A stretch of DNA of 54,773 nt, taken from positions 1-54,773 of IMG/VR virus record IMGVR_UViG_3300042453_001089, one strand, 5' to 3'. A model generated the notes under the pieces. It ran no database searches, was not told where the DNA came from, and worked only from the letters and a program-made list of their open reading frames with translations. This DNA comes from a virus (Duplodnaviria; Caudoviricetes). Made by a program: the position numbers and the translations under genes. Numbering within the stretch: the stretch's first letter is position 1; the number at the start of each line of letters is the position of its first letter. Below, one piece after another: positions 1 to 54,773 of the stretch.

Positions 1-823
1 GTGGCAACAGAGTCTTCATCCTTTTTTGCTCCTCGTAGGCACCTTTCACACCGCACTGATCAGGGCACTCTTCGCAAGTGCCGATGTATGTGGATTGGTT
101 TTCGATGCTGACCCAGGCGCCGCCGCCCAGGTTGCGATGTCGATCAACCAAGATGTCGCCGGCCACGACCCGCGCGTCAGACGCTGGGATTCGCAGCGGG
201 TTGTCGATCACCAACTCGCCGGCCGTCTCAAATAGGCTTGCCTGTATCGCAGCCATGCGGCGGCCTTCTTCGGTGTCGCCAAACTTGCAGGACACGATGC
301 GAAGCAGCGACCGCATCCCAAAATCAAGGGACCGCCGCCACTCGCGAAGACGCAAGCGAAGTTCCGCCGGCGTGTCCATCGCTGAAACGGACGTGTTGAG
401 AACCGTGTTCGCGGATGCCATCCGACGCAGGTGATCGTCGTTCGATGCGATCCAATGCTTGGTGACGACGACCGGCGTTTTGAGTTTGCCCAGCCACTCG
501 CAAACCTCTGTCGTCAGATCCCAATCGTGGCAGGGATCGCCCATGTTTCCGATGCGAAACCACGTTGCCGGGTGGGCCACCAGCTGCCGCTCAATCACGC
601 GCCGTTCGCTGTCTTCAACCCGGCGGCTCACGCTGGTGGGGAAGTCGAAGCCGTACAGTTCCGCAGTCGAATTGGCGTAGCAGTGTCCGTAGCATCCGCC
701 CTTCGGCCTGGCCTTCATGCCAAGCGTGCAGCCCTTTACGGTGTCCACGTCGAGCACGCCCTTTCGGTTGCTGGACACTGTCAGCTTTGGCTTGTACTTC
801 TCAACAAACAGTCGCCGTACCAT
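1..823 (-). CDS. 5' part (radical-SAM-like domain) of the three-domain modification enzyme, allele A; runs off the window edge and continues at 51430 on circularisation
   Basis: Colinear with 51431..52253; ATG at 823 with an AAAGGA SD. Confidence 0.85.
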   Translation of the reverse strand, partial: MVRRLFVEKYKPKLTVSSNRKGVLDVDTVKGCTLGMKARPKGGCYGHCYANSTAELYGFDFPTSVSRRVEDSERRVIERQLVAHPATWFRIGNMGDPCHDWDLTTEVCEWLGKLKTPVVVTKHWIASNDDHLRRMASANTVLNTSVSAMDTPAELRLRLREWRRSLDFGMRSLLRIVSCKFGDTEEGRRMAAIQASLFETAGELVIDNPLRIPASDARVVAGDILVDRHRNLGGGAWVSIENQSTYIGTCEECPDQCGVKGAYEEQKRMKTLLP

Positions 824-844
824 CACGCATCCTTTCGTGTGTAT

Positions 845-996
845 TTGCCCGGTTACGCCGGGCGGGCGGTCGAGTCTCTGCGATCAGGAGGAACCGGTTT
901 GCGCGTCTCTCGACTGCCGGCGTTGAACCCCACTGGGCCGGCTATAGGGGCGAATGCTGGTGATGAGCCAGCTACGGCAATCGCGTGCCGGTGGTG
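845..996 (-). ncRNA. Structured RNA leader (hairpins plus probable pseudoknot), allele A
   Basis: Three compensatory base-pair swaps relative to 52273..52422. Confidence 0.6.
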
Positions 997-998
997 AT

Positions 999-1226
999 CT
1001 AGCGGGGTATCCGTTCGTTTTGGTCGAGTTCAAAAATCCGCTGGTTCTCCGCTCGTATGGCCCGTTCGTCGCGCCGCGTGTTGTGCCACGGCCCAACGTC
1101 CACGATCCATGGCGACGGCAGTTCGTCATCAAGCACTTTGCCAAGGTCCGTTTCCACCGTGAGCGGTTCGCTGATCCGTTGCCGGTACTGCTCGTCCGTC
1201 TCGAAGTCGCGTTTGAAATCAGCCAT
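999..1226 (-). CDS. Hypothetical protein (75 aa)
   Basis: GGAGG SD; near-identical protein at 52425..52652; coupled to recT. Confidence 0.8.
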   Translation of the reverse strand: MADFKRDFETDEQYRQRISEPLTVETDLGKVLDDELPSPWIVDVGPWHNTRRDERAIRAENQRIFELDQNERIPR

Positions 1227-2127
1227 GTGTCGCCACCTCCTCTGAGCCGATCAGGATCTCAGCCTTGCCGTGCAGCAGCTTGACCAGCTCGTCACGGTCG
1301 GCGTCGGTAAACACGCCTTCGGTGTGCCGCGTGCTGATGAGATCCCGCAGCGTGTCGCAGTCCTCGAGCGTCTTGGCTCGGCTCACGGCCAACCTGGCCT
1401 TGGCAACCGGGTCCGTGATCTCAGGCGGCTGACGCTTCGTCTTCAGCGTGACGGTGCTGGGCTGGTCCGTGACGATGTCGGGCGTGTGCGGCTCGAACGA
1501 CTCGACGTGGTGGACTTCCACGCCGGACGCGACCACCTGCGATTTGACGCCACGTGGACGAACGACCACGGGTTCGCGGGCCGGCTCAGGCGTCGGGTAG
1601 TCCTGTGCTTCCTCTGCCGTCACGAGCCCTTTCAACACGTCAGGGAAGGCGTCACGAAGAGCGAAGCCACGGGCACGCAGCTGGAGCATCCGTTTCGGAT
1701 ATTGCGTCCACGGGCCAGACTTGCCCCACAGCCCGGCCTTCTTGGCGTCGGCCACGCTGAACTGAACCGTGGTTGGCTTCGGGTAGCCACGCCGCTTCGC
1801 CTGACACTGGGCAACCATGGCATCGCCGTCGCCGGTCACTTCCTCCCAAACGAACTCGCACACCAGACTGCTCTGCACCAAGGCGAGGGCCGCATCGCCC
1901 CAAATGCTCGGGCGACCGTTGATGACAGCGATGCACTGCAGGCTTTGCATCGGGCCGAGTCCCAACTCGGCACCGTGCTGGCCAGCCAGCAAACACGCCT
2001 CCGGCTTGCCCTTGAAGTCTTTGGGCGCGAAGTCGGTCTTCGCCACCATCTGCCAAAAACGCCAGGCATCATCGAACGTCTGCAGGGCCAGCCCGCCGGC
2101 CCGTTGTGTGGTCAATTCCGTGGTCAT
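1219..2127 (-). CDS. recT: RecT/Red-beta-like ssDNA annealing protein, allele A
   Basis: GAELGLGPMQSLQCIAVINGRPSIWGD, AKKAGLWGK..PW.QYPKRML..RARGFALRDAFPDVLKG motifs. Confidence 0.8.
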   Translation of the reverse strand: MTTELTTQRAGGLALQTFDDAWRFWQMVAKTDFAPKDFKGKPEACLLAGQHGAELGLGPMQSLQCIAVINGRPSIWGDAALALVQSSLVCEFVWEEVTGDGDAMVAQCQAKRRGYPKPTTVQFSVADAKKAGLWGKSGPWTQYPKRMLQLRARGFALRDAFPDVLKGLVTAEEAQDYPTPEPAREPVVVRPRGVKSQVVASGVEVHHVESFEPHTPDIVTDQPSTVTLKTKRQPPEITDPVAKARLAVSRAKTLEDCDTLRDLISTRHTEGVFTDADRDELVKLLHGKAEILIGSEEVATHG

Positions 2128-2266
2128 CGTCGCGTCCTTTCGTGTGAATCCCTTTTGAAATCCCGCTCGGCGTCATGCGTTGCGGGTGCTTGTTGCGTCC
2201 TTGCTGCCCCGGTTCCACCGGGCTCCTTCTCCGTTCCGGTTCCACCGGGCCGGAGTCCTTTCCCGT
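2128..2266 (-). ncRNA. GGA-rich element, candidate CsrA/RsmA-binding RNA, allele A
   Basis: 11 GGA in 139 nt on the minus strand vs 1 on plus; two CCGGT-GGA-ACCGG hairpins. Confidence 0.55.
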
Positions 2267-2488
2267 CTAGTGCGTGATGTCCTGCGGCGAAACCGACAGC
2301 CACGCGCCGTCGCACTCAATCGCCAGCCAGCCACGATCAACCGCCATGACGTGGCCGCTCCAACGCTTGCCGGCAGTGCAGCCTGAGACGAAGTCGCCCA
2401 CGGCGGGTTCGCCTCTCGACCGGCTGCGCGGAGTCTGGTCGTGTATGCCAGCGATCGCCGCGAGGTACTCGTTGCGCGCTGCGTCCAT
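2267..2488 (-). CDS. Hypothetical protein (73 aa, small beta-barrel-like C-terminus)
   Basis: AAAGGA SD; conserved at 54453..54674. Confidence 0.8.
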   Translation of the reverse strand: MDAARNEYLAAIAGIHDQTPRSRSRGEPAVGDFVSGCTAGKRWSGHVMAVDRGWLAIECDGAWLSVSPQDITH

Positions 2489-2538
2489 GCTGTGTTCCTT
2501 TGTTCAGATGCCCAAGCAGGGCAGGGAAGATAAAAATT

Positions 2539-2552
2539 GGGGGGGGGGGGGG
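2539..2552. repeat. G14 homopolymer (G13 in copy B at 54724..54736)
   Basis: Direct count. Confidence 0.9.
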
Positions 2553-2654
2553 TGCAATTACCGTGCCGTTTGGCACTTGTTTTTCAGTGTTTTTTGACGT
2601 TGCGGAAAACTTTTGTAGCGGGCTCCTCACTCGTTTGTGGCGGGTCGTGCGGGT

Positions 2655-2682
2655 AATGTACGAACGTCCATCTAGCTTGCAA
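2655..2682 (-). promoter_or_regulatory. Putative sigma70 promoter TTGCAA-N16-TACATT overlapped by a TGTAC-N4-GTCCA palindrome
   Basis: AT-rich intergenic region upstream of the early operon. Confidence 0.5.
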
Positions 2683-2751
2683 GCGATGCTGTACAAAAAA
2701 CCATTCGACGGGCGTTTCGCTCTGTGTTTTGCGTGACGTTTTGCACAGTTG

Positions 2752-2791
2752 GTAGCGTCAGTTGGGCTATGGTGTAGCGTCAGTTGGGCTA
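2752..2791. promoter_or_regulatory. Tandem operator-like direct repeat GTAGCGTCAGTTGGGCTA x2
   Basis: Exact 18-nt repeat at 2752 and 2774; related sites inside the promoters at ~3887 and ~4245. Confidence 0.65.
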
Positions 2792-2935
2792 ACGTGCAAG
2801 AGCGCTGGCGATCCCGCACAGCAGTTCCAGCAGATCGTGGACTGCGCGAGCCGCCTGGGAGTCCGTGCCAAGCTCTTGGCCAAGACGCACCAGCGTCAGA
2901 GCGGTAATCGCGGCGTTGTAGTGGCGTTTCATTTT
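2789..2935 (-). CDS. Small hypothetical protein
   Basis: Overlaps the stop of the upstream gene; start uncertain. Confidence 0.5.
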   Translation of the reverse strand, partial: KMKRHYNAAITALTLVRLGQELGTDSQAARAVHDLLELLCGIASALAR

Positions 2936-3168
2936 CCAACCCTTGCGACGTTTTCGGGAGCGTATTCGCCTTTGCTCCAAAGGCGATCTTCAATTTCCGA
3001 TAGCTGGCGGCAGATGTCCTTCATCTGCTCTGCGTGCCCCCAGGTGAATTGCCTTCGGCCGCTGGCAACGTCTTCGTAGTCGCCACGAATCTTAATGGTC
3101 ATCGACTCGAGCAGCCCGACCGCGTAGCTGCACTGGCGTCCGTAGTCGTTTGTGGCTTCAGTGTTCAT
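2929..3168 (-). CDS. Hypothetical protein (79 aa)
   Basis: GGGAG SD; in a small-gene operon. Confidence 0.65.
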   Translation of the reverse strand: MNTEATNDYGRQCSYAVGLLESMTIKIRGDYEDVASGRRQFTWGHAEQMKDICRQLSEIEDRLWSKGEYAPENVARVGK

Positions 3169-3194
3169 CGGAGGCTCCCTTTGGTGATGGTGTG

Positions 3195-3237
3195 AAAAAG
3201 TGCCACCCGTTTCGCAGCTGTCGGCAGGCCGGGTGGC
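3195..3237 (-). terminator. Intrinsic terminator
   Basis: GCCACCCG/CGGGTGGC stem followed by a T-tract on the minus strand. Confidence 0.55.
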
Positions 3238-3251
3238 CCCACCGTGTGCGG

Positions 3252-3512
3252 TCAGAGGTTCATTGCCATAGCCACGACATACTTTGCCTCAAGCCTGCTC
3301 ATGGCTTTTGTCGTGACTCGGTAGCAGTGCCAGCCGGCCCGAAGTCCGCCGGGGAAGTCGTTCGCCGTGAGCGTCTTCGTGTGCGTGATGCCCTGCCCTT
3401 TCAAGGCAAGCGGCGTCCGCAGGTAGTAGTGCTCGCCGTAGTGGCCGAGCGAAGCCTCGATCTGCGTGTCAGCGGGAGCCTTCTCGTTCATCTCTGGGTA
3501 GTAGCAGTGCAT
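3252..3512 (-). CDS. Hypothetical protein (86 aa)
   Basis: ORF flanked by hairpins; AAGGGA SD. Confidence 0.7.
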   Translation of the reverse strand: MHCYYPEMNEKAPADTQIEASLGHYGEHYYLRTPLALKGQGITHTKTLTANDFPGGLRAGWHCYRVTTKAMSRLEAKYVVAMAMNL

Positions 3513-45096: not shown

Positions 45097-45329
45097 GCGT
45101 CACCGCCTTCCACCACTCGCATGGTGCGCCCACGGCCCGGTTCCATGGCTATCACGCCGGCTCGCACCAGCCGGGAAATGAGCCCCTGGATGTTGTTGAC
45201 GTTGCAGCGGAAGTGCGCCGCCATCTGGCGATACGTCGGCGGGTAACCGTGCGCCGCCACGAATCGAGTGATGTACGCCAGCAGCGAACGCTGCCGGGGG
45301 GTGAGGGTTTTTGTTGCTGTGGTGGTCAT
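45093..45329 (-). CDS. Stand-alone LexA-type DNA-binding domain
   Basis: LTPRQ..LL.YI......GYPPT.R.MA..F; no peptidase domain. Confidence 0.85.
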   Translation of the reverse strand: MTTTATKTLTPRQRSLLAYITRFVAAHGYPPTYRQMAAHFRCNVNNIQGLISRLVRAGVIAMEPGRGRTMRVVEGGDA

Positions 45330-46177
45330 GGCTCGTCCTTGAGTTTGATGGCGTCTGCAAGTCCTGCGGCTTCCCGTGGTCGCCTGTACGGCGCCGGTCG
45401 GTATTCGTCCCGCCACGCCTTCGGTGGCGGCTTCTCGTCTGGACGCACGCCCGGCTGGCGGTTCGTGCCGCCCTTGTCTTGGCAACGGGACAGCCAACGC
45501 ACGAGGAACGAACGCCAGTTACGTCGGCCTGCCCGTGTCGGGTTCGCCCGGAGCCAGGCGGTGGCCTTGGCGAGCTCCTGGTCGATCACGGCACCGGGGT
45601 AGGCGGCGGCCCACTCCTGCCGGTCGGCGTCGGTGATGCCCTGCCACCCTGCGTCAGCAGTCCACGAGACGGCAGGTTTCGCCCGCGAGCGGGACGGCTT
45701 TGCCGGATCGCTCGTGGAAACCGGCGCAGCCGGTATGTCTTTCTTCTCTTCTTCTCTCTTCTCTTCTCCTGTCCTCTCCTCTAGTCCGGTTTTTTCTGGA
45801 CAAATTTCGGACGCACCGCCGGACAAACGCCGGACAGCCCTGTCCGCAGCTTTCCGGCGGGCGTCTTCCATGCGAGCCTTGGCAGCACGGGAAAACCGCT
45901 TTTCCCAGCCCTCAATAGTCGCGTGCGGCCCGTCAAAACGGAGCCAGCCCACGCGAGCCACAGCCAGCCAAAACGCCTCGTCACCACCGCAGGCCGTCGC
46001 AATCCGTGACGCTGTAGCGCGGATCGTGCCGTCTGCGGTGTTCATGGATGCCCACGACCACAACTGGATGAGACGCCAGCAGACCACCTCAACAGGCAGC
46101 CCGGTTTCGTCCACCAGCTCAAGCACCTCGGGCTTCGTGCCCAGGTTGCAGTCAAGGGGAATCCATTCACCGGCCAT
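45326..46177 (-). CDS. Phage replication initiator
   Basis: MAGEWI..PEV..LWSWA N-terminus; EEKREEEKK linker; C-terminal AWL.ANP..F..WL.R. Confidence 0.75.
   Translation of the reverse strand: MAGEWIPLDCNLGTKPEVLELVDETGLPVEVVCWRLIQLWSWASMNTADGTIRATASRIATACGGDEAFWLAVARVGWLRFDGPHATIEGWEKRFSRAAKARMEDARRKAADRAVRRLSGGASEICPEKTGLEERTGEEKREEEKKDIPAAPVSTSDPAKPSRSRAKPAVSWTADAGWQGITDADRQEWAAAYPGAVIDQELAKATAWLRANPTRAGRRNWRSFLVRWLSRCQDKGGTNRQPGVRPDEKPPPKAWRDEYRPAPYRRPREAAGLADAIKLKDEP
45738..45846. other. Putative replication origin within the initiator gene
   Basis: GGAC-core repeats at 45798, 45809, 45821, 45832 plus inverted copies, next to a polypyrimidine tract. Confidence 0.5.
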
Positions 46178-47079
46178 TAAGGCTGCCCGTCCTTTCCGAT
46201 CCAGCCCATGCCGACGTAGTCGCCGTCAACATCTTGCGGCGACGGTGAAATCAGCAGTTCTTTGTTCTTTGGTCGCTTCTTGTCAGTTACAGCGTTCGTG
46301 TATCGAATCTCCAATTCCCGGAATTCTGCCCACGAATAGAGTTCTCGAACCTCTTGGCAGTCATCGTAGGACAGACGCCAATCCGCCTTTGTCTCGCGGA
46401 GCAACGTCGCCAACTCGACGTGCTCTTCGTGGCTCATGTTGTGGGCATACAGCTGCCCGCCTTTCACGTAGTACGGCGGGTCGAGATACACGAGCGAAGA
46501 CGAAGTTGCGTCTGCTATCAAATCGCGGAAGTGCAGGTTTGTGATCCGTACTTCTTGAAATCGCCTGAGCGTTTCTTTTGCGTTGTAAATCGCCTGCTCA
46601 ATTGAAGCAGGCGTCCACCTGCACCCAACCGTGTACGCGCCATCCTGCCTCTTGCCACCAATCGGACCGCCAGCCATTGCGCCAAAGCCGCTCACGCTCA
46701 TTCGGTGCAGGGCAATCTTTCGGAAGGCGTCGCGCGCAATGCAGCCGGTTGACGTACCATCAGCCGACTTCAGTTCATAAAACGCTTCCTTGGTCGGCTG
46801 AAACTCTCGCACGTATTCGACAAGTTTTCGCGTCTCGTGCATGACCGCATGCCATACGGCATACATCGCGTAGTCGATGTCGTTGATCCAGACTGAGATT
46901 GACCGCCGCACGTGCTCGAGCAGTTGAAGGCCGGCGGCACCGGAGCCGAAAAAGGGCTCGACAAACCATGCGTTTTTCGGCGGCTCAAAAACGCTGCCGA
47001 TCATCCAGCCGGGCATGTGTTCGCGGATCATTGGTGTAATCTTCGCCTTTGATCCGGGGTAGCGAATAATTGACGGCAT
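46177..47079 (-). CDS. Dam/D12-class DNA adenine methyltransferase
   Basis: RYPGSK, EPFFGSG, INDI, YLDPPYY, LSYDD. Confidence 0.92.
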   Translation of the reverse strand: MPSIIRYPGSKAKITPMIREHMPGWMIGSVFEPPKNAWFVEPFFGSGAAGLQLLEHVRRSISVWINDIDYAMYAVWHAVMHETRKLVEYVREFQPTKEAFYELKSADGTSTGCIARDAFRKIALHRMSVSGFGAMAGGPIGGKRQDGAYTVGCRWTPASIEQAIYNAKETLRRFQEVRITNLHFRDLIADATSSSLVYLDPPYYVKGGQLYAHNMSHEEHVELATLLRETKADWRLSYDDCQEVRELYSWAEFRELEIRYTNAVTDKKRPKNKELLISPSPQDVDGDYVGMGWIGKDGQP

Positions 47080-47660
47080 CACAGCACCTCGTCGATTGGC
47101 CGAATCTTGAGCAGTTGACGAATAGGAAGCAGGCTCAAATTGCTTATCTCTTTGTTCATCCACTCACCTCGCGGCGAACAAACGGACTTGACTCGCAACA
47201 ACGCAGCACGGCTCACGTAGCCATCGACGCTCACGGTGGGCGTCAATCCGTTCCACGTCGCAAATACAAACCAATCGCACGCTTCAATCGGATCGCGAAC
47301 CAGACGAGTCTGAAACTTCTTGCGCGATGTCTTCACCTGCACGTGCCCTGACGGAAGAGGTAAATCTTTTCCGCCGTCTCCGCGATCACGCATTGCAAGG
47401 TCAACGCCAACGCGAGACAACTTGCACATAGCAATTTCGCCAACCTTCCCAATGACAATTCCAACGTGCGCCTGATCGGCGTCTATGCCGCCGTAAAGCC
47501 GCATTCCCGAAATCAGACCGCCCTTCCATCCTGGCTGTCCGGCGTATGCACGAAGTCGAGAACATCGCTGCGCGAACTCAAAGCACATCGCCACTTCCGA
47601 AGGCGTAATCTCAACGACTACTGGCAGCGGTGGTCTTTTTCCTTGACCTTCCACTTCCAT
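47079..47660 (-). CDS. PD-(D/E)XK-like nuclease
   Basis: GKVGEIA..DGGKD..VQVKT. Confidence 0.6.
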   Translation of the reverse strand: MEVEGQGKRPPLPVVVEITPSEVAMCFEFAQRCSRLRAYAGQPGWKGGLISGMRLYGGIDADQAHVGIVIGKVGEIAMCKLSRVGVDLAMRDRGDGGKDLPLPSGHVQVKTSRKKFQTRLVRDPIEACDWFVFATWNGLTPTVSVDGYVSRAALLRVKSVCSPRGEWMNKEISNLSLLPIRQLLKIRPIDEVL

Positions 47661-48207
47661 GCTCGGCCTCCATTTCCGATAGGAACTCAAGCATCCGCTC
47701 TATGCGGCTGCGGACGTAGATGAACTGCTCTGGCGTAGTAAGCCTGCCGACGAACTTCGTGACGGCGTTTTTCACCGCCGCCGCCATCTCTTCGTGAGGT
47801 GGCTTCTCAAGCTTCTCCACTGGGTCGGCGTGCAAGGCTGCCGCCTGCGCCCTGGTCGTCTCGGGCGTGATCTCGCCAGCCTTGATGCCGGCGATCAGCG
47901 TCTCGTCATCGAGCTTGGCGAGTTCGTAGAGGGTCCCCCACGACTGCGGTAAATCGGAAACAAATTTCCGATCTGAAAGCACTGGATGCACCGCAAGTTC
48001 CATGAGCATCCTGGCACTCCGGTCGCCGAACGGCACCGGCTCACTAACCGCGTTCTCGTGCCCCTTGAACATCCGCAGGAACTCGCCATGCTCGCACGAC
48101 TCTTTCGCGGCGATCAACTGCCGGCCCACGCCTAGGATGCCCTCAATGCTCTTACGCCACTCGGCGTGAATCTTTGGTGCCCAATACTCAGCCTTCGTCT
48201 TTTTCAA
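47611..48207 (-). CDS. DUF3102-like protein
   Basis: VGRQLIAAK...HGEF..F..RSA..LM..LP.SW..LYELA. Confidence 0.7.
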   Translation of the reverse strand: MKKTKAEYWAPKIHAEWRKSIEGILGVGRQLIAAKESCEHGEFLRMFKGHENAVSEPVPFGDRSARMLMELAVHPVLSDRKFVSDLPQSWGTLYELAKLDDETLIAGIKAGEITPETTRAQAAALHADPVEKLEKPPHEEMAAAVKNAVTKFVGRLTTPEQFIYVRSRIERMLEFLSEMEAEHGSGRSRKKTTAASSR

Positions 48208-48872
48208 GTCGCCGCCCTCCACACTGTCGCCCGCTTGTTCGCGCTGGTCATCCGCTTGCCAGCCACCACAATCATGCCAGCGTCGGCAAGTTCTCCGCGT
48301 CGCGGCCGTTGCGACGATGGGTTCATCGCGATCGCACGCTGGCACTCCTCGTCCGTTGCCCCGTGCTCGCCCTGGTCGCGGATGTAGTCAAAGACCTTCC
48401 GCTGCTGGGCGTTCATCGTCTCGACGGTCAGCGATGCACGCGCCTCGGCAGACATTTGCCGTGGCGTATCCATGCCGCAGTTAGCGAAGGCAGACACGAA
48501 GTGCTTCGCGTGATCGTCGTAGGAAAGGTCATCGCCCATGCCGGCCTTCACGTACTGCTTCAGCCGCGTCAGTTGCCGATTGCCACCGACGATGCGAAAC
48601 CACTCGACGGCATCCGGCGACACGGCACCGCCAGCCATGTAGGCATCAACCTCCGCAGCGAACCGGCACGACGTGCCACGCTTTCGGTTCTTGAGTTTCT
48701 GTGCCCCGATCCTGACGAGCACCTGTGGCGGGTACAGGCTCATCGTCATGCCCCTCGCCTCGGACTCGGTGCAAAGCCCTCGAACACTGATAGCCTTGCG
48801 AATCGACTCCAGGCACATGGCAGTGCCGGCTTGCGTGCCGCCAGTGTCGTGCGTGATTGTGCGACTAGGCAT
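48204..48872 (-). CDS. Protein with C-terminal winged HTH
   Basis: GATDEE..MNPSSQRPRRGEL..G.R.T....A.VW. Confidence 0.75.
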   Translation of the reverse strand: MPSRTITHDTGGTQAGTAMCLESIRKAISVRGLCTESEARGMTMSLYPPQVLVRIGAQKLKNRKRGTSCRFAAEVDAYMAGGAVSPDAVEWFRIVGGNRQLTRLKQYVKAGMGDDLSYDDHAKHFVSAFANCGMDTPRQMSAEARASLTVETMNAQQRKVFDYIRDQGEHGATDEECQRAIAMNPSSQRPRRGELADAGMIVVAGKRMTSANKRATVWRAAT

Positions 48873-49902
48873 GAACGAGCCCTCCCAACTTCGCCCGAAG
48901 CTTCGAAACAGTCTCCTCAGATGCCGTCCACAGCGATTCGATCTGCTGCTGCACTTCGTCCAGCTTGGCGAAGTCCAGCCCCATGTCTGACTCCAGCTTG
49001 GACAGTTGCTTGCGGATGTCGTCGCAGCGAAAGCGAATCACAGCAGCCGGGTCCATCGCCTCGCGGCGACCGTTGCGGTAGCCACGCGATGCACTGACAA
49101 GCTCGGCCAGGGTGGCAGCAGCAGACAGCCGCTTCCGCTTCGACTCGTGCAGCACCTTCCGCACGTCAGCGTCGTCGAAGAATCGGCAGAACTGCTTCGC
49201 CAGATCGTCGAACCCAGGGTCGTGATTCCACGCCCACAACTCCCCGAACGATTCGACAAGTTTGGCCGGCGTCTGAAGCCCGATGGCGTTGCAGTGCTGC
49301 TTTGCCAGCAGCGACTTGATGTGCAGGACCAGTCGCTCCCTCCGAACGCCGTGCCCATCCCAGCGACGGAACATCGACGCGATGAACTTCTTGTCTGGCA
49401 TGCCGGCGGTAACGCCGCCATGCTTGGTAATCACCTCACTAGCACAGTACGCATACGCCTCGTCATCCGAGATCGACTTGCCGTTCGTGGCGTTGTCGAA
49501 CAGTGACAGATCCCGAAGGGCATCCACATCGCCCTGGTTCTTCGGCAACGCCCGGAGGCATCGAAGCGTCTTTGCGCCGGCACGCCTCGCAGCCTCAAGC
49601 CGGTGACGCCCTGCGCACGGGCTGGCCTTCGTGTCCCGCTGGTTGCGTGCGGCAAAAGCAGCCACGATCAGCGGCATCGGGAGCAGGTCGCCGTTGAGGT
49701 AGGCATCCTTGTACCGCAGCACGAACTCCTCGTCCGTGCTGCCAGCGTCGAACCGCGTCTGATAGCGGTTGTCGGAAAGGTCGATGTCGCAGACCCGAAC
49801 GTCCTGCTCGTCCCACTCGATACCAAGATCGGTGAGCCGGCGGATCATGTTGTCGTTCTGGGAGAACGAGAGATAACCGTCGTCGTCAATTGCGCTAGCC
49901 AT
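48865..49902 (-). CDS. ParB/Srx-like N-terminal domain protein
   Basis: YQTR, Y...Y..G..LP.P, GRHRLEAARRAG, N..NG. Confidence 0.75.
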   Translation of the reverse strand: MASAIDDDGYLSFSQNDNMIRRLTDLGIEWDEQDVRVCDIDLSDNRYQTRFDAGSTDEEFVLRYKDAYLNGDLLPMPLIVAAFAARNQRDTKASPCAGRHRLEAARRAGAKTLRCLRALPKNQGDVDALRDLSLFDNATNGKSISDDEAYAYCASEVITKHGGVTAGMPDKKFIASMFRRWDGHGVRRERLVLHIKSLLAKQHCNAIGLQTPAKLVESFGELWAWNHDPGFDDLAKQFCRFFDDADVRKVLHESKRKRLSAAATLAELVSASRGYRNGRREAMDPAAVIRFRCDDIRKQLSKLESDMGLDFAKLDEVQQQIESLWTASEETVSKLRAKLGGLVHA

Positions 49903-49947
49903 TGCAGATCCTTTTGTAAAGAGAAATCGAACCTTTCGTGTGTCAGA

Positions 49948-50064
49948 TCACGTCACGCCACCCAGCGAGTCCGCAGCTGCGGCGCTGGTGGCAGAGCCAC
50001 GCACGCTGGGGGCGGGTGTTGAGAACAGCGGGCCGGGCGGTGTGTCGGGCCAGTAGTCGGACAT
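49948..50064 (-). CDS. 38-aa ORF, probable N-terminal remnant of an interrupted wHTH gene (not in the ORF track)
   Basis: GGGAGG SD and TGATG overlap; MSDYWPDTPPGPLFSTPAPSVRGSATSAAAADSLGGVT. Confidence 0.55.
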   Translation of the reverse strand: MSDYWPDTPPGPLFSTPAPSVRGSATSAAAADSLGGVT

Positions 50065-52253
50065 CACAGCCTCCCTATTGGCGGGTACAGCAACTTGATC
50101 TTCTTGGGATCACCCTTGAAGAAAACGAGGATCTTCTGCTCCCGCTTCGGAAACTTCCGGTAGTTCAGCGTTACCTTCGCGTGAGCGAGTCGCGTGAACT
50201 CGCATTCGAGGTAGACGATTTTGTTGTAGATGTGCAGGCCACGGTCGCGGAAAAACAACTCGTGCTCCGCTTCACACCCGTAGTACCCGCCGTGCTTATC
50301 GCGGGAGTCGCCCGTCATCACGACGAAGAATCGGTTGTCGTCCAGCGCGTCGATCGCACGCTGATAACCGGCGAAGAGCATGTCACGAAACTCGCCATAC
50401 GTCGGCAGACTGTTCAATTCGCCGACCGGCGACTTGCCGTCGTAGTCGAGGTACTCCTCAACCTGATAGTAAGGCGGGCATGTAAAGCACAGGTCGAACT
50501 TGCCCTCCGGGGTGTACTGGCTGCTGTCAGACTGAACCCACGTTGCAGATGACAGCTGCGAGCAGATCGCATTGTTGGCGTCGCACTGGTTCTTTCTGAT
50601 CTCGCTGGCGACGTACTCCAGCCCGTAGGAAGCCGTGACAAAGCCGAACTGAACGCCGCCGCCGAACGGGTTGTAGACGCGACTGCCACCACTCGGCATG
50701 AAAAACCGCAGGATCGTCTCGCAGGCCACAGGGTCCAAAACCGATGCGTTGCCGTTGAACGACTTGCCGCGGACTTCCTTGACGGCGTCGCCCTCAATCA
50801 CCCTCTCGGTGAGAACGACATTGGACATCCCGTTGCTGCCCTGCCAGCAGCCGTCACGTGTGGCGTAGGTCGCGTTGGCAACGCCGGCAGCCTGACCGGC
50901 TTCGTTGATCTTCGCGTTCCACTCGCGCTTCATCTTGAGCCAATCCGACCTGGTGGTCGTCCAGGCGTTGGTCATGGTGGCGTGAGCCAGCCGCTTGAGC
51001 CTCGCCTGCGATTCGGTGCCATGCACCATGTAGCAGTAGCCGCTGAGTTCCAGGTACGTCCAGAATCCGCAGCCCTCGAAGACGCTCGGTCGTTCCAGCT
51101 TGTGCTTGGTGCTGCACGTCAGGAACATCGGGTAGCCAAACGTGTTGCGCTGGACGATGGCATCAACCATCATTTGGTACTGGAATTTGTTCTCCATGCC
51201 AGCGACCATCGCGGACTGAAGCAGGCAGAACTCACCGGCCTCGTGATTCACCTGAAATGTGAAGAAACCCGTGAACGCGCCGTCGATCAGCAAGACCATC
51301 GCAGAATGAATCTGCATGTTCTTTCTGGCGGCCCGGTAGGCGACCTTGTCTTCAATCGCAAGTTTCGCAATCGCGTCTTGATACTCCGAACCGAGTACCG
51401 TTTCGACATACACGCACTCCACCGTCTCGCGTGGCAACAGAGTCTTCATCCTTTTTTGCTCCTCGTAGGCACCTTTCACACCGCACTGATCAGGGCACTC
51501 TTCGCAAGTGCCGATGTATGTGGATTGGTTTTCGATGCTGACCCAGGCGCCGCCGCCTAAGTTGCGATGTCGATCGACCAAGATGTCGCCAGCCACGACC
51601 CGCTCGTCAGACGCTGGAATTCGCAGCGGGTTGTCGATGACCAACTCGCCGGCAGTCTCGAACAGGCTTGCCTGTATCGCTGCCATGCGGCGTCCTTCTT
51701 CCGTGTCGCCAAACTTGCAAGACACGATGCGAAGTAGCGACCGCATCCCGAAATCAAGGGACCGCCGCCACTCGCGAAGACGCACGCGAAGTTCCGCCGG
51801 CGTGTCCATCGCGGAAACGGACGTGTTGAGAACCGTGTTCGCGGATGCCATCCGACGCAGGTGATCGTCGGCCGATGCGATCCAATGCTTGGTGACGACG
51901 ACAGGCGTTTTGAGTGTGCCCAGCCACTCGCACACCTCTGTCGTGAGATCCCAATCGTGGCAGGGATCGCCCATGTTTCCGATGCGAAACCACGTTGCCG
52001 GGTGGGCCATCAGCTGCCGCTCAATCACGCGGCGTTCGCTGTCTTCAACCCGCCGACTCACGCTGGTGGGGAAGTCGAAGCCGTACAGTTCCGCAGTCGC
52101 ATTGGCGTAGCAGTGTCCGTAGCATCCGCCATTCGGCCTGGCCTTCATGCCAAGTGTGCAGCCCTTTACGGTGTCCACGTCTAGCACGCCCTTTCGGTTG
52201 CTGGACACTGTCAACTTTGGCTTGTACTTCTCAACAAACAGTCGCCGTACCAT
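50064..52253 (-). CDS. Three-domain protein: radical-SAM-like + GNAT-like + amino-DNA methyltransferase
   Basis: GC..GGCYGHCYA, FRIGNMGDP, CEECPDQC; GFFTF..FCLLQS..FEGCGF; SVLDP..E, NPFGGG, TCPPYY. Confidence 0.8.
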   Translation of the reverse strand: MVRRLFVEKYKPKLTVSSNRKGVLDVDTVKGCTLGMKARPNGGCYGHCYANATAELYGFDFPTSVSRRVEDSERRVIERQLMAHPATWFRIGNMGDPCHDWDLTTEVCEWLGTLKTPVVVTKHWIASADDHLRRMASANTVLNTSVSAMDTPAELRVRLREWRRSLDFGMRSLLRIVSCKFGDTEEGRRMAAIQASLFETAGELVIDNPLRIPASDERVVAGDILVDRHRNLGGGAWVSIENQSTYIGTCEECPDQCGVKGAYEEQKRMKTLLPRETVECVYVETVLGSEYQDAIAKLAIEDKVAYRAARKNMQIHSAMVLLIDGAFTGFFTFQVNHEAGEFCLLQSAMVAGMENKFQYQMMVDAIVQRNTFGYPMFLTCSTKHKLERPSVFEGCGFWTYLELSGYCYMVHGTESQARLKRLAHATMTNAWTTTRSDWLKMKREWNAKINEAGQAAGVANATYATRDGCWQGSNGMSNVVLTERVIEGDAVKEVRGKSFNGNASVLDPVACETILRFFMPSGGSRVYNPFGGGVQFGFVTASYGLEYVASEIRKNQCDANNAICSQLSSATWVQSDSSQYTPEGKFDLCFTCPPYYQVEEYLDYDGKSPVGELNSLPTYGEFRDMLFAGYQRAIDALDDNRFFVVMTGDSRDKHGGYYGCEAEHELFFRDRGLHIYNKIVYLECEFTRLAHAKVTLNYRKFPKREQKILVFFKGDPKKIKLLYPPIGRL

Positions 52254-52272
52254 CACGCATCCTTTCGTGTAT

Positions 52273-52422
52273 TTGCCCCGTGACGTGGGGCATCCGGTCG
52301 AGTCTCAGCGTCAGGAGGACCGGTTTGCGCGTCTCTCGACTGCCGGCGTTGGTCCGCACTGGGCCGGCGATACGGGCGAATGCTGCTGATGAGGCAGCTA
52401 CGGCAATCGCGTGCCGGTGGTG
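52273..52422 (-). ncRNA. Structured RNA leader, allele B
   Basis: Covaries with 845..996. Confidence 0.6.
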
Positions 52423-52424
52423 AT

Positions 52425-52652
52425 CTAGCGGGGTATCCGTTCGTTTTGGTCGAGTTCAAAAATCCGCTGGTTCTCGGCGCGGATCGCCCGTTCGTCTCGC
52501 CGCGTGTTGTGCCACGGCCCAACGTCCACGATCCAAGGCGACGGCAGTTCGTCATCAAGCACTTTGCCGATGTCCGTTTCCACCGTCAGCGGTTCGCTGA
52601 TCCGTTGCCGGTACTGCTCTTCCGTCTCGAAATCGCGTTTGAAATCAGCCAT
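52425..52652 (-). CDS. Hypothetical protein (75 aa), allele B
   Basis: Near-identical to 999..1226. Confidence 0.8.
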   Translation of the reverse strand: MADFKRDFETEEQYRQRISEPLTVETDIGKVLDDELPSPWIVDVGPWHNTRRDERAIRAENQRIFELDQNERIPR

Positions 52653-53538
52653 GGGTAGCCACCTCCTCTGAGCCAATCAGGATTTCCGCCTTGCCGTGCA
52701 GCAGCTTGACCAACTCGTCACGGTCCGCGTCCGTGAACACGCCTTCGGTGTGCCGTGTCGCTATGAGATCCCGCAGCGTGTCGCAGTCCTCGAGCGTCTT
52801 TGCCCGGCTCACGGCCAACCTGGCCTTGGCAACCGGGTCTGTGATCTCAGGCGCCGCCCGCTTGCTCTTGAGCGTCACAACGCTGGCCGGCTCGGTCGTG
52901 ATGTCAGGCGTGTGCGGCTCAAACGACTCGACGTGGTGAACTTCCACGCCGGGTGCCACCTTCTGCGATTTGGTGCCATGTGGACGCACCACAACGGGCT
53001 CGCGGGCCGGTTCAGGCTCGCTGACCTCGTCAGGGTCATAGATCCCGACCGCACCTTCCCAGCCGATGCTCTTGAGCCCGGCCGTGATGGCACGGCTGCG
53101 AAGCATCGCCTTCGGGTGCTTGTTGTAGTTGTCGTTCGACGCCAGCCCGGCCCGCTTCGCGTCCTCAATCGTGAACGTCTCGGTGTGCTGGTCGCCGTTC
53201 GGATGCCGCAGCGTCAGCACGGCCCGCGTCTCAGAGAGTTCCTTGAACTCGGCTCGGCCACCGGCACTCTTGAATCGGGCCAACTGGGAGTCGGCCCGCT
53301 CCGTGACCGTTCCCTTAATGACCTGCAGCTTGCGGCAGGCGGCCATCGTGCCCATGCCCAACTCGCGGCCCATCAGCACAATCGCAGCGAAATCTACGCC
53401 GTTCTTGATGTGAGCCGGCAGGAAGCCTGTGCGGCGAAGTTGGTCGCCCATCGAAACGAGTCCCGCAAACTCCGCAGCGCCCTGGTTGTGTTCTGCCAGT
53501 GCTGTCGGCCTGGTCATAGTGGTGAGTTCAGTGGTCAT
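52645..53538 (-). CDS. recT: RecT-like ssDNA annealing protein, allele B (divergent core)
   Basis: GRELGMG..VIKG, FTIEDAKRAGL..YNKHPKAMLRSRA; C-terminal tail shared with allele A. Confidence 0.75.
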   Translation of the reverse strand: MTTELTTMTRPTALAEHNQGAAEFAGLVSMGDQLRRTGFLPAHIKNGVDFAAIVLMGRELGMGTMAACRKLQVIKGTVTERADSQLARFKSAGGRAEFKELSETRAVLTLRHPNGDQHTETFTIEDAKRAGLASNDNYNKHPKAMLRSRAITAGLKSIGWEGAVGIYDPDEVSEPEPAREPVVVRPHGTKSQKVAPGVEVHHVESFEPHTPDITTEPASVVTLKSKRAAPEITDPVAKARLAVSRAKTLEDCDTLRDLIATRHTEGVFTDADRDELVKLLHGKAEILIGSEEVATHG

Positions 53539-53678
53539 ATTTCCGCGTCCTTTCGAGTGAATCCCTTTTAAAAATCCCGCTCGGCGTCCTGCGTTGCGGG
53601 TCGTTCGTGCGTCCTTGCTGCCCCGGTTCCACCGGGCTCCTTCCGCCAACTAGCTCCGCTGGCCGGCGGTCCTTTGGC
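53539..53678 (-). ncRNA. GGA-rich element, allele B
   Basis: 11 GGA in 140 nt on the minus strand, 0 on plus. Confidence 0.55.
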
Positions 53679-54419
53679 TTACGCCGTATGTGTTCTGAAA
53701 AGCGGCAACTCTGGTTCTTCACGCTTGGCTGTGATCGGAAACGACACCGGCGCGAAATCCGCAGCCTTTGGATATGGCATCGCTCGCGGCGCTAGCCGGC
53801 GACGCGCCCACGGCGTAAGCGGGAACGCATAGCGAAACTGGCGAAATTCATGCTTAGTCGCACGGTCGCGGCCGGCGGCAAGCCTCGCTGCTTTCGGCCC
53901 GCTCCCCCAGCCGCGATTGTCTTTGGCAGCTCTGCCGAGCAGAGACTTGTGAAACCATTCGCCGTCAAGGAAATAAAACGCAGTGACGTGGCTTCCGAGG
54001 TAGATGAAGTTCGCCGCCTGATACACGGCACCAAGCTTTCCGCACCGCTGGTCGGCAAAGCTCTGTATCACCTGCACCATCGGACGATCAGACTTGATGT
54101 GCCGCATCGCCTGAGCAATCGCCCACGAAACCACGTTGCGTTCGTGTCCGTCGATAAAAGCCATCCGATTCAGTTCAACGAGCCCGCAGGGTTCCAGCCC
54201 CTCAATCACCTTCGCTGTAGCCCGCGGATTCATGGATGGCCCAAACTGCAAAACACCCCAAACAAACGAGAGAGAATCGACTAAGGCCAAGTGCGTATGG
54301 GATGCCCAGACGGCACTGCCGCTGTAGTGCCGCTCGGAAATCCAGCGGTCGGCAAAACGCTTCGTCACTGGTGACAAGGCGTAAAGCCGGGTGCCGATCT
54401 TGGTGTATTTGGTTCGCAT
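53679..54419 (-). CDS. mom: Mu Mom-like adenine modification enzyme (GNAT fold)
   Basis: HYS, GVLQFG..MNP, ELNRM, QSFADQRCG..G.VYQA.NF.Y.GSH..FY.LDGEWFH, H.F.QFRY, PYPK. Confidence 0.9.
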   Translation of the reverse strand: MRTKYTKIGTRLYALSPVTKRFADRWISERHYSGSAVWASHTHLALVDSLSFVWGVLQFGPSMNPRATAKVIEGLEPCGLVELNRMAFIDGHERNVVSWAIAQAMRHIKSDRPMVQVIQSFADQRCGKLGAVYQAANFIYLGSHVTAFYFLDGEWFHKSLLGRAAKDNRGWGSGPKAARLAAGRDRATKHEFRQFRYAFPLTPWARRRLAPRAMPYPKAADFAPVSFPITAKREEPELPLFRTHTA

Positions 54420-54452
54420 TGGTTCGCTCAGTCCGTGCGTTTGCAAACTTGC

Positions 54453-54674
54453 TCAGTGCGTGATGTCCTGCGGGTCCACCGGCTTCCATTCGCCGTCGCA
54501 TTCGATCGCCAGCCAACCCCTGTCGCAGGCCATGACGTGGCCGCTCCAACGCTTGCCGGCAGTGCAGCCTGAGATGAAATCGCCCACTGCGGGTTCGCCT
54601 CTCGACCGGCTGCGCGGCGTCTGGTCGTGGATGCCGGCGATCGCTGCGAGGTACTCGTTGTGCGCTGCGTCCAT
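54453..54674 (-). CDS. Hypothetical protein (73 aa), allele B
   Basis: Homolog of 2267..2488. Confidence 0.8.
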   Translation of the reverse strand: MDAAHNEYLAAIAGIHDQTPRSRSRGEPAVGDFISGCTAGKRWSGHVMACDRGWLAIECDGEWKPVDPQDITH

Positions 54675-54773
54675 GCTGTGTTCCTTTGTTCAGATCGTGA
54701 AGAAGGCCGGGAGGATAAAAATTGGGGGGGGGGGGGTGCAATTCCTTTGCCGTTTGGCACTTGTTTTTCAGTT

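What the first reader, a model, noticed from the sequence alone, without database searches (positions are those of the whole stretch)
48865..52253. Radical-SAM-like/GNAT/DNA-methyltransferase fusion beside ParB: candidate new DNA hypermodification pathway
Seen: one ~730-aa frame. The N-domain has a non-canonical Cys motif (C-x11-C-x3-C-YA), RIGxxGDP and a terminal CxxCxxxC; the middle domain is GNAT-like; the C-domain has motif I NPFGGG and motif IV CPPY. An internal GAGGAG..ATG (51449) at the first junction suggests a fusion point or second start. Known: ParB-associated amino-methyltransferases, radical SAM enzymes and GNATs each occur in phage base-modification loci. Inference: sequential methylation, radical activation and acylation giving an undescribed base. 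I know of no characterised enzyme with this architecture. The same region also holds Dam-like and, in one allele, Mom genes.
Basis: partly seen in the sequence, partly recalled or inferred. Interest (0 to 1): 0.8.

Follow-up and report, generated by a model that had tools for sequence, protein, structure and literature searches.

The report
Phage radical-SAM/GNAT/methyltransferase DNA-modification enzyme
An uncultured phage encodes one 730-residue protein that welds an iron-sulfur radical enzyme, an acyltransferase-fold domain and a DNA-methyltransferase-type domain, a widespread but unstudied combination that probably puts a larger-than-methyl chemical mark on phage DNA.

Summary
Structure prediction shows three domains:
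- a radical-SAM barrel closest to spore photoproduct lyase (VIA Z 12.4);
- a GNAT fold (Z 14-16);
- a class-I amino-methyltransferase fold (Z 16-17, Trm11/TrmN-like) with a family-specific F[ST]CPPY motif.

Pfam recognises none of the three.

The fusion is not an assembly chimera. The 120 best database homologues are near full length, and 45 of 80 IMG/VR loci carry it as one ORF. In 33 more loci the radical-SAM part is a separate adjacent gene: 3 upstream, 20 downstream, and 10 replaced by a canonical CxxxCxxC radical SAM protein. No other neighbour recurs in more than 10 of 80 loci, so the module is self-contained.

The "ParB" neighbour is not confirmed by any profile method, and its homologue appears in 0 of 80 loci.

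Best reading (about 0.5): an Elp3-like radical, acyl-dependent hypermodification of a flipped DNA base, used against restriction. The product is unknown.

No paper on this architecture turned up in seven searches. This scan noted the same module earlier on other DNA (e1-3282060, e1-6214508).

The parts
50064..52256 (-). Whole 730-aa ORF (GTG 52256, or ATG one codon later; AAAGGA ribosome-binding site upstream): radical SAM + GNAT + methyltransferase-type fusion
   Evidence: ORF list. Start region read. The 120 best homologues are 637-768 aa and cover 87-100% of the query.
51471..52256 (-). N-domain, residues 1-262: radical-SAM partial TIM barrel of the spore-photoproduct-lyase type
   Evidence: AF2 model of this domain alone: pLDDT 93.3, pTM 0.91. 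Foldseek best hits 4fhf/4fhc, E 2e-5. VIA 4fhc Z 12.4, 231 residues aligned, with radical SAM enzymes filling the next 34 rows. hhalign to the canonical radical SAM partner family: 93.6%, E 2e-7.
52104..52160 (-). Variant cluster motif C33-x11-C45-x3-C49-Y-A, directly after strand beta-1
   Evidence: Letters checked. Invariant in A1 and A2. hhalign puts C45/C49 on the first and third Cys of CxxxCxxC-YA in the partner family.
51963..51986 (-). RIGNMGDP, residues 91-98. It occupies the place of the glycine-rich SAM-binding motif of radical SAM enzymes (the motif's role is recalled, not tested).
   Evidence: R91 and G93 invariant, G96 and P98 at least 90% conserved in A2. Aligned to IRIGGMTD of the PF04055-positive partner.
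51483..51506 (-). C251-x2-C254-x3-C258: candidate second metal or Fe-S site at the end of the N-domain
   Evidence: Invariant in 36 of 36 N-domain sequences. Absent from the canonical partner family, which ends in CC.
51447..51464 (-). Linker with GAGGAG, 9 nt, then ATG (M270): fusion scar and possible internal start giving a GNAT-methyltransferase protein
   Evidence: Letters checked. Split GNAT-methyltransferase ORFs in 22 loci start at the equivalent position. Linker pLDDT is below 50 at residues 264-276.
51006..51425 (-). Middle domain, residues 278-417: GNAT fold, with the most conserved motif AYRAARKNMQ (309-315 at 51312..51332)
   Evidence: VIA on the full model: 7l1k Naa30 Z 16.0 (131 aligned, rmsd 2.5), Ard1 15.0, RimI 14.9 and others, all over residues 274-417. 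Sequence profiles do not detect it.
50067..50969 (-). C-domain, residues about 430-730: class-I SAM methyltransferase fold of the amino-methyltransferase type, with motif I before motif IV
   Evidence: VIA: aTrm11 5e72 Z 17.2, TrmN 3tma 16.7, Trm14 16.1, PrmC 14.4. Foldseek: 5e71 E 2e-7. phrog_498 'DNA methyltransferase' E 1.3e-35 and phrog_12517 E 2.9e-37. PF01555 is only 13.7 bits, below its 26.7 cut-off.
50655..50672 (-). Motif I, NPFGGG (529-534)
   Evidence: Invariant in A1.
50466..50480 (-). Motif IV, CPPYY (593-597), within F-[ST]-C-P-P-Y...E.Y
   Evidence: P594, P595, Y596 and Y597 invariant and C593 at least 90% conserved. The same motif occurs in ParB-methyltransferase fusions of cultured phages.
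50133..50159 (-). Invariant basic loop RKFPKREQK (700-708), low-confidence in the model: candidate nucleic-acid contact loop (inference)
   Evidence: Invariant in A1. pLDDT below 50 at 683-705.
2..826 (-). Second copy of the N-domain from the overlapping strain variant at the record's start. By circularity it joins the same GNAT-methyltransferase part.
   Evidence: 268/275 aa identical. 33 nt differences, in 24 synonymous and 7 non-synonymous codons, none at a conserved Cys.
48865..49902 (-). It is a conserved hypothetical with a CAGRHR motif and is not shown to belong to the module.
   Evidence: 39 homologues, none with a Pfam domain. No ParB profile match. Homologue in 0 of 80 related loci.

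Best explanation
The ORF encodes a self-contained, three-domain nucleic-acid base-modifying enzyme of tailed phages. It sits in the early replication/recombination operon.

Shown by computation:
- Domain 1 has the radical-SAM fold, closest to the DNA enzyme spore photoproduct lyase. It carries a rewired three-Cys site plus a second three-Cys site.
- Domain 2 has the GNAT acyltransferase fold.
- Domain 3 has the fold and motifs (FxGxG, then [C/S]PPY) of SAM-dependent amino-methyltransferases. It belongs to a phage family otherwise fused to ParB_N domains.
- The three parts are always fused or adjacent, and nothing else is.

Inferred mechanism:
1. The methyltransferase-type domain recognises phage DNA and flips out the target base into its CPPY pocket.
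2. The radical-SAM domain reductively cleaves SAM to the 5'-deoxyadenosyl radical.
3. As in Elp3, that radical abstracts hydrogen from an acyl (most simply acetyl-CoA) donor held by the GNAT domain, or from a group on the base.
4. The resulting carbon radical is joined to the base, giving a carboxymethyl-type or larger adduct.
5. The SAM site of domain 3 may add a methyl group before or after this step.

The biological role would be post-replicative protection of phage DNA from host restriction. The product, the target base and the acyl donor are unknown.
For: Folds:
- The N-domain model has pLDDT 93.3.
- SPL is the top hit by Foldseek (E 2e-5) and by VIA (Z 12.4, 231 aligned).
- Radical SAM enzymes fill the first 35 VIA rows.
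- GNAT Z 14-16 and Trm11/TrmN/Trm14 Z 16-17 on the full model.

Homology to a true radical SAM:
- In 10 loci the N-domain is replaced by an adjacent 279-298-aa protein with CxxxCxxC-YA.
- Two of these proteins were scanned against Pfam and score above the PF04055 cut-off (34 and 44.4 bits against 29.5).
- Profile-profile match of the two families: 93.6%, E 2e-7.

Linkage among 80 IMG/VR loci:
- 45 fused;
- 3 with the N gene directly upstream;
- 20 with it directly downstream;
- 10 with the canonical radical SAM directly downstream;
- 2 undetermined.
No other gene family occurs in more than 10 of the 80 loci.

Conservation:
- All six Cys, GDP, FGGG, PPYY, E552 and D577 are invariant.
- 24 synonymous against 7 non-synonymous codon changes between the two strain copies.

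DNA context:
- Neighbours are RecT, a replication initiator, Dam and Mom in the window.
- Neighbours in related loci are primase-helicase, VRR-NUC, YqaJ, RecT, DnaB and TerL.
- The nearest sequence relatives of domain 3 are ParB_N fusions annotated as DNA methyltransferases.
- The phage has no tRNA gene.

Precedent (passages read):
- SPL-like radical SAM M6 gp53 and GNAT PaMx11 gp48 act on DNA bases (PMC8989533).
- Elp3 joins a radical SAM and a GNAT domain to make an acetyl-CoA radical. That idea was raised for Mom, but no trans-acting radical SAM was found (PMC7261163).
Against: - Nothing here is experimental.
- Pfam and NCBIfam see none of the three domains above threshold.
- The cluster motif is non-canonical, so SAM cleavage is not assured.
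- I see no conserved glycine-rich CoA-pyrophosphate loop between strand 4 and helix 3 of the GNAT domain in the consensus. The motif itself is recalled from memory. The acyl donor may therefore not be an acyl-CoA.
- Elp3 is not among the 50 VIA rows for the N-domain.
- The GNAT domain shows no profile similarity to Mom (0.1%, against a thin 3-sequence Mom profile).
- The best structural neighbours of domain 3 are tRNA m2G methyltransferases, which leaves an RNA target open.
- The full-length model has pTM 0.56, so the mutual arrangement of the domains is not established.
- Model coordinates could not be inspected, so which Cys bind which cluster is unknown.
Confidence: 0.5

Rival explanations
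1. First reader's order of events. Domain 3 first makes an N-methyl base (m6A or m4C). The radical-SAM domain then abstracts hydrogen from that methyl group (or from the base). The GNAT domain finally transfers an acyl group to the activated position, or to an amine produced there.
For: The SAM-binding residues of domain 3 look intact: FGGG, E552 and D577 are invariant. GNATs that acylate an amine unmasked on a DNA base are known (PaMx11 gp48; PMC8989533). The domain set is the same as for the best explanation.
Against: No data order the steps. No oxidant or amine donor is encoded in the module, and no further conserved neighbour exists. The precedent for a radical SAM next to a GNAT (Elp3) activates the acyl donor, not the substrate (PMC7261163).
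Confidence: 0.15
2. An ordinary N6-adenine or N4-cytosine DNA methyltransferase. The two N-terminal domains would then serve regulation, DNA binding or redox sensing rather than chemistry on the base.
For: phrog_498 'DNA methyltransferase' E 1.3e-35. Two homologues, P0078 and P0099, carry PF01555 in the precomputed table. Relatives fused to ParB_N are annotated as methyltransferases. The cluster motif is non-canonical.
Against: Six invariant Cys and the SAM-motif region are conserved down to 24% identity. The N-domain is interchangeable with a canonical PF04055 enzyme in 10 loci. Strict three-way linkage across fused, split and permuted forms is hard to explain for a mere accessory domain. The phage already has a Dam.
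Confidence: 0.15
3. An RNA (tRNA or rRNA) modification enzyme. This would be an Elp3-like radical carboxymethylase joined to a Trm11/TrmN-like methyltransferase, used by the phage to retune host translation.
For: The best structural neighbours of domain 3 are tRNA m2G methyltransferases (Z 16-17). Radical SAM followed by GNAT is the Elp3 layout (PMC7261163).
Against: The N-domain is closest to the DNA enzyme SPL, and Elp3 is not in its 50 rows. Sequence relatives of domain 3 are fused to ParB_N, a DNA-binding fold. Neighbours are replication and recombination genes. The phage has no tRNA genes.
Confidence: 0.12
4. A DNA repair enzyme: an SPL-like lyase for thymine photoproducts or other lesions, fused to unrelated domains.
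For: SPL is the top structural match.
Against: Identity to SPL is 13-17%. The cluster motif differs. Obligatory linkage to GNAT and methyltransferase domains has no role in lyase repair. The SPL-like M6 gp53 is already known to act in modification, not repair (PMC8989533).
Confidence: 0.04

Closest known systems
Elp3 (Elongator catalytic subunit; radical SAM + GNAT/KAT, makes cm5U on tRNA)
   Same: A radical-SAM domain is followed by a GNAT-fold domain in one polypeptide. It offers a plausible shared logic: a radical is generated on an acyl-CoA and added to a nucleobase (mechanism as described in PMC7261163).
   Different: No sequence-family match to Elp3. Elp3 is not among the 50 listed structural matches. 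The cluster motif differs. A third, methyltransferase-type domain is present. The context points to DNA rather than tRNA. There is no visible CoA loop.
Spore photoproduct lyase SplB (PDB 4fhc/4fhf)
   Same: Best structural match over the whole N-domain: Z 12.4 with 231 aligned, and Foldseek E 2e-5. It is a radical SAM enzyme that works on DNA.
   Different: 13-17% identity. C-x11-C-x3-C in place of CxxxCxxC. An extra CxxCxxxC site. Fused or coupled to GNAT and methyltransferase domains.
Phage thymidine-hypermodification enzymes M6 gp53 (SPL-like radical SAM) and PaMx11 gp48 (GNAT) (Lee et al. 2021, PMC8989533; passages read)
   Same: These are SPL-like radical SAM and GNAT enzymes that act post-replicatively on bases in phage DNA.
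   Different: Those pathways start from 5-hmdU and need a kinase and an amino-acid:DNA transferase. This phage has no thymidylate-synthase-family gene, and the module has no further conserved partner. Here the two enzyme types occur together and with a methyltransferase-type domain.
ParB_N-methyltransferase fusions of phages (phrog_498; e.g. Listeria phage B054 gp77, Pseudomonas phage ZRG1, Mycobacterium phage Vincenzo gp1)
   Same: The C-domain is 26-35% identical over residues about 434-727. The same F[ST]CPPY..E.Y motif IV is present. The partial PF01555 match is the same.
   Different: Those proteins carry ParB_N in place of radical SAM + GNAT. 0 of 27 matching cultured-phage records cover the N-terminal 430 residues. 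I found no member with a determined activity.
Phage Mu Mom (PF25680), GNAT-fold enzyme making N6-carbamoylmethyladenine
   Same: A GNAT fold used for an acetyl-derived, non-acetyl DNA adduct. A Mom gene lies 1.4 kb upstream in this record.
   Different: No profile similarity between the middle domain and Mom (0.1%). Mom has no radical SAM or methyltransferase domain. Mom occurs in only 2 of 80 related loci.

Membership tests
Radical SAM superfamily (PF04055) | Partial (beta/alpha)6 TIM-barrel fold shared with solved radical SAM enzymes | tested here: met
   VIA: SPL Z 12.4, then viperin 11.1, BlsE 11.0, SkfB 10.7, PFL-AE 10.2 and others. Foldseek agrees.
Radical SAM superfamily (PF04055) | CxxxCxxC cluster-binding motif after strand 1 | tested here: not met
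   The motif is C-x11-C-x3-C and is invariant. hhalign shows one Cys of the canonical triad missing. Non-canonical spacings are known in some radical SAM enzymes (recalled, not checked).
Radical SAM superfamily (PF04055) | Score above the Pfam gathering threshold | tested here: not met
   No hit for the window protein. 1 of 36 family members reaches E 0.07.
Radical SAM superfamily (PF04055) | Demonstrable homology to a protein that passes PF04055 | tested here: met
   The partner family A8 passes PF04055 in the two members scanned (34 and 44.4 bits). A2 against A8 by hhalign: 93.6%, E 2e-7, 135 columns.
Radical SAM superfamily (PF04055) | [4Fe-4S]-dependent reductive cleavage of SAM | not testable with these tools
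   Needs purified, reconstituted protein.
GNAT superfamily | GNAT fold (strand-helix-helix-three strands-helix-strand-helix-strands) | tested here: met
   VIA Z 14-16 to Naa30, Ard1, RimI, Naa50 and others over residues 274-417. The order of secondary-structure elements fits.
GNAT superfamily | Match to a GNAT sequence family | tested here: not met
   0 families for the window domain. 2 of 25 members give weak hits at E 0.027 and 0.054. Atlas scores are below 0.8.
GNAT superfamily | Acyl-CoA pyrophosphate-binding loop (Q/R-x-x-G-x-G/A; motif recalled) | tested here: inconclusive
   No conserved glycine pair between strand 342-350 and helix 357-370 in the consensus. Judged by eye only.
Elp3 | Radical SAM domain N-terminal to a GNAT/KAT domain in one chain | tested here: met
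   Domain order.
Elp3 | Sequence or structural membership in the Elp3 family | tested here: inconclusive
   No Elp3 model at E up to 1 in NCBIfam, or up to 10 in Pfam. Elp3 is not among the 50 VIA rows shown, which does not exclude it.
Amino-methyltransferases with (D/N/S)PPY (PF01555 and relatives) | Class-I Rossmann methyltransferase fold with motif I FxGxG | tested here: met
   Z 16-17 to Trm11/TrmN/Trm14. NPFGGG is invariant.
Amino-methyltransferases with (D/N/S)PPY (PF01555 and relatives) | Motif IV (D/N/S)PPY | tested here: inconclusive
   PPYY is invariant, but the first residue is Cys in 21 of 22 sequences and Ser in 1. The same CPPY occurs in ParB_N fusions. Whether Cys supports methyl transfer is unknown.
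Amino-methyltransferases with (D/N/S)PPY (PF01555 and relatives) | Score above the PF01555 gathering threshold | tested here: not met
   13.7 bits against 26.7. PHROG 498 and 12517 match strongly.
ParB/Srx (neighbour ORF 48865..49902) | Match to ParB_N (PF02195) or a solved ParB | tested here: not met
   0 of 17 members match. No ParB in the PDB profile search. hhalign 0.3%.
Mom (PF25680), for the middle domain | Profile similarity to Mom | tested here: not met
   hhalign probability 0.1% against a 3-sequence Mom alignment.

The most novel reading that the evidence does not exclude
This is the first DNA-directed counterpart of Elp3. A single phage enzyme would use a 5'-deoxyadenosyl radical to activate an acyl donor and form a new carbon bond to a base flipped out of double-stranded DNA by a methyltransferase-derived domain. 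The result would be a previously unseen carboxymethyl-type (possibly methylated) DNA base. It would also supply the radical-SAM/GNAT chemistry that was sought for Mom and not found.
Probability: 0.25. Interest if true: 0.9.

Novelty: new variant of a known kind. Interest (0 to 1): 0.72.

Why it matters
Phage DNA hypermodifications are a main route of escape from restriction and CRISPR, and a source of new enzymology and DNA-labelling tools. Only one radical SAM enzyme, M6 gp53, has so far been tied to installing a DNA modification (statement in PMC8989533).

This module stands out for four reasons:
- It is compact: one or two genes with no other conserved partner.
- It is widespread in uncultured phages: 274 of 326 candidate stretches in IMG/VR encode a relative, and 24 loci were found in the species-representative genomes, 22 of them on MAG contigs.
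- It is invisible to Pfam.
- It is absent from the 50,697 cultured-phage records as a full-length protein.

It can be tested directly by expressing a single ORF. A positive result would define a new DNA base and extend Elp3-type radical chemistry from tRNA to DNA.

Tried and rejected
**Searches that found little or nothing**
- Sequence-family searches of the whole protein gave nothing for residues 1-470: Pfam at E up to 10, NCBIfam at E up to 1, and PHROGs.
- phmmer and profile searches of PDB sequences gave only chance hits to scorpion toxins on the Cys-rich stretch (E 0.19) and weak methylase hits at E 0.1.
- Atlas look-alikes gave leads only. For the N-domain these were GP88, Radical_SAM and DUF5131. 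For the middle domain all scores were below 0.8.
- BFVD has no close structural relative. The best hit is E 1.3e-4, to an unnamed viral radical SAM.
- Middle domain against Mom: no similarity.
- No proteins longer than 1278 aa are related (the tool itself calls this weak evidence).
- The plasmid collection gave one hit, a Borrelia hypothetical protein. M.EcoGIX-type plasmid methyltransferases therefore do not appear to belong to this family. I read passages of PMC7736820 and found nothing bearing on it.

**Other negative or uninformative checks**
- Assembly-chimera idea: rejected.
- A 5-hmdU-based pathway: no thymidylate-synthase-family gene in the record.
- Promoter and terminator scan of 45000-54773: nothing informative.
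- Complex prediction on the split pair (L054 GNAT-methyltransferase with its canonical radical SAM neighbour): verdict 'no answer', score 0.01. This is not evidence either way.

**Literature**
- Seven searches listed no paper on a radical SAM/GNAT/methyltransferase phage protein.
- Iyer et al. 2013 (NAR 41:7635) is not held, so I could not check whether it mentions this architecture.
The tables of PMC8989533 and PMC12704722 might list related clusters or fusions.

Full report
**What is there**

The window is a complete IMG/VR virus record of 54,773 bases. Its two ends overlap as diverged strain copies: 1..127 equals 51431..51557, and identity is about 93% over the next 1.5 kb.

On the minus strand, a tight run of early genes reads as follows:

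| Coordinates | Gene |
|---|---|
| 53679..54446 | Mom |
| 52645..53649 | RecT-like |
| 52425..52676 | small ORF |
| 50064..52256 | the 730-aa target ORF |
| 48865..49902 | 345-aa ORF |
| (between) | three small ORFs |
| 46177..47163 | Dam |
| 45326..46177 | replication initiator |

All are conserved in 22 full-length homologues. The N-domain motifs are also conserved in 36 N-domain homologues down to 24% identity.

**What the domains are**

Pfam, NCBIfam and PDB sequence searches fail on residues 1-470. PHROGs recognise only residues 471-724, as phrog_498 'DNA methyltransferase' (E 1.3e-35) and phrog_12517.

*N-domain.* AlphaFold2 on the N-domain with a diverse alignment gave pLDDT 93.3 and pTM 0.91. 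The best matches are:
- spore photoproduct lyase: Foldseek E 2e-5, TM 0.52-0.54, and VIA Z 12.4, 231 residues aligned, rmsd 4.7;
- then radical SAM enzymes in the next 34 rows, at Z 7.8-11.1.

*Other domains.* The full-length model (pLDDT 78.5, pTM 0.56) gave:
- GNAT-fold matches over residues 274-417, at Z 14-16;
- amino-methyltransferase matches (aTrm11, TrmN, Trm14, PrmC) over about 427-717, at Z 14-17 (Foldseek).

For the first two domains it rests on predicted structure, not on family models.

**Independent support that domain 1 is a radical SAM enzyme**

Ten related IMG/VR loci encode the GNAT-methyltransferase part alone. It is followed directly by a 279-298-aa protein with a canonical CxxxCxxC-YA motif. 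Two of these proteins were scanned against Pfam and pass PF04055.

Profile-profile comparison of that family with the variant N-domain family gives 93.6% probability, E 2e-7, over 135 columns. The alignment places C45 and C49 on the outer Cys of the canonical triad, and the middle Cys is missing. C33 sits right after strand 1 in the model. It is the likely third ligand, with an 11-residue insert; this is inference. The extra CxxCxxxC is specific to the variant family.

**Is the fusion real?**

Yes.
- The 120 best of 1672 database hits are 637-768 aa, 57-88% identical, and cover 87-100% of the query.
- In IMG/VR, 274 of 326 candidate stretches encode a relative.

Among the 80 loci kept, the arrangements are:

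| Arrangement | Loci |
|---|---|
| Single ORF (L046 and L055 cut by the contig start) | 45 |
| N-domain as a separate gene directly upstream (L006, L044, L052) | 3 |
| N-domain directly downstream of the GNAT-methyltransferase gene | 20 |
| Canonical radical SAM directly downstream (L066 cut by the contig end) | 10 |
| Undetermined (L048 starts at the contig edge; L049 shows none within its 5.9 kb) | 2 |

The separately encoded GNAT-methyltransferase proteins start about 10 residues before the conserved IEF.YV.SVIGSGYE block. That is exactly where the window protein has M270, preceded by GAGGAG. This is a fusion scar and a possible internal start.

The two strain copies of the N-domain differ at 33 nucleotides, in 24 synonymous and 7 non-synonymous codons.

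**What is not part of it**

A census of ORFs within 5 kb in the 80 loci found no other family in more than 10 loci. The recurrent neighbours are primase-helicase, VRR-NUC, YqaJ, RecT, DnaB, terminase and a C5 methyltransferase.

The 345-aa 'ParB' has 39 homologues with no Pfam domain. It matches no ParB model or structure and has no homologue in any of the 80 loci. Mom occurs in 2 of the 80, and in only one end copy of this record.

**Relatives of domain 3**

In 50,697 cultured-phage records, only 27 match. All matches fall within residues 434-727, at 26-35% identity. The four annotated records I fetched include ParB_N-methyltransferase fusions with the same F[ST]CPPY..E.Y motif. These lie near the terminase and beside an AdoMet decarboxylase (phage ZRG1) or a PLP enzyme (phage Vincenzo). 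The CPPY domain therefore looks like a reusable DNA-base-targeting module paired with varied chemistry. This is inference.

**Mechanism**

I commit to an Elp3-like scheme on DNA, at confidence about 0.5 for 'radical, acyl-dependent, larger-than-methyl DNA base modification' and about 0.25 for the specific Elp3-type carbon-carbon coupling.

The folds, the linkage and the context are shown. Cluster binding, SAM cleavage, the acyl donor, the target base and the role of the methyl-transfer site are inferred.

Against this reading:
- the cluster motif is non-canonical;
- no CoA loop is visible;
- Elp3 is not among the listed structural matches;
- the best neighbours of domain 3 are tRNA enzymes.

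The rivals are a plain methyltransferase, an RNA modifier, the methyl-first order and a repair lyase. Each is set out with its refuting experiment.

**Novelty**

Seven literature searches found nothing on this architecture. The closest discussions, of which I read passages only, are:
- the Mom paper's unsuccessful search for a trans-acting radical SAM (PMC7261163);
- the M6/PaMx11 thymidine pathways (PMC8989533);
- a survey that lists phage ParB-methyltransferase fusions without radical SAM or GNAT (PMC12704722).

Iyer et al. 2013 could not be read. My results agree with those notes and add the canonical-partner homology, the four gene arrangements and the fusion-scar start.

Noticed in passing
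window 1..3300 and 51431..54773: The record's ends are two strain variants of one locus, so the true circle is about 51.4 kb. The RecT-like genes of the two copies are only 53% identical in protein, while the flanking genes are 95-97% identical. This suggests a recombinase gene swap. Mom is inserted in the end copy only.
   Followed up: partly
L084 (Pseudomonas phage ZRG1) 982-2827; L085 (Mycobacterium phage Vincenzo) 1-2275: ParB_N-CPPY methyltransferase fusions of cultured phages sit directly beside an AdoMet decarboxylase (PF02675, E 1.6e-23) or a PLP enzyme (PF00291, E 2.5e-10), next to the terminase. They may form other untested DNA-modification modules built on the same CPPY domain.
   Followed up: partly
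window 48865..49902 (-): A conserved 345-aa hypothetical protein (39 homologues, 56-98% identical) with an invariant C-x-G-R-H-R motif and a coiled-coil-like C-terminus. No family or fold is assigned.
   Followed up: partly
window 52146..52148 (residue M37 of the target ORF): The ESM Atlas holds this protein only from residue 37, read as M. That gene call cuts off C33 of the cluster motif, so automated annotations of this family may be N-terminally truncated.
   Followed up: no
L051 4945-6021 and three other loci: A C5 cytosine DNA methyltransferase (PF00145, E 4e-55) lies upstream of the module in 4 of 80 loci.
   Followed up: no
alignment A4 (GNAT domains): 4 of 25 GNAT-domain sequences give weak hits (best E 0.02) to the JBP1 DNA-binding domain PF18526. 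This is probably noise.
   Followed up: no
L087-L110 (genome contigs): Of 24 genome loci, 22 are on MAG contigs from many phyla, among them Desulfobacterales, Cloacimonadota, Dehalococcoidales, Fonsibacter, Bdellovibrio and Phycisphaerae. The two without a MAG label are Smithella sp. SCADC (full length) and Riemerella columbipharyngis DSM 24015 (C-domain only).
   Followed up: no
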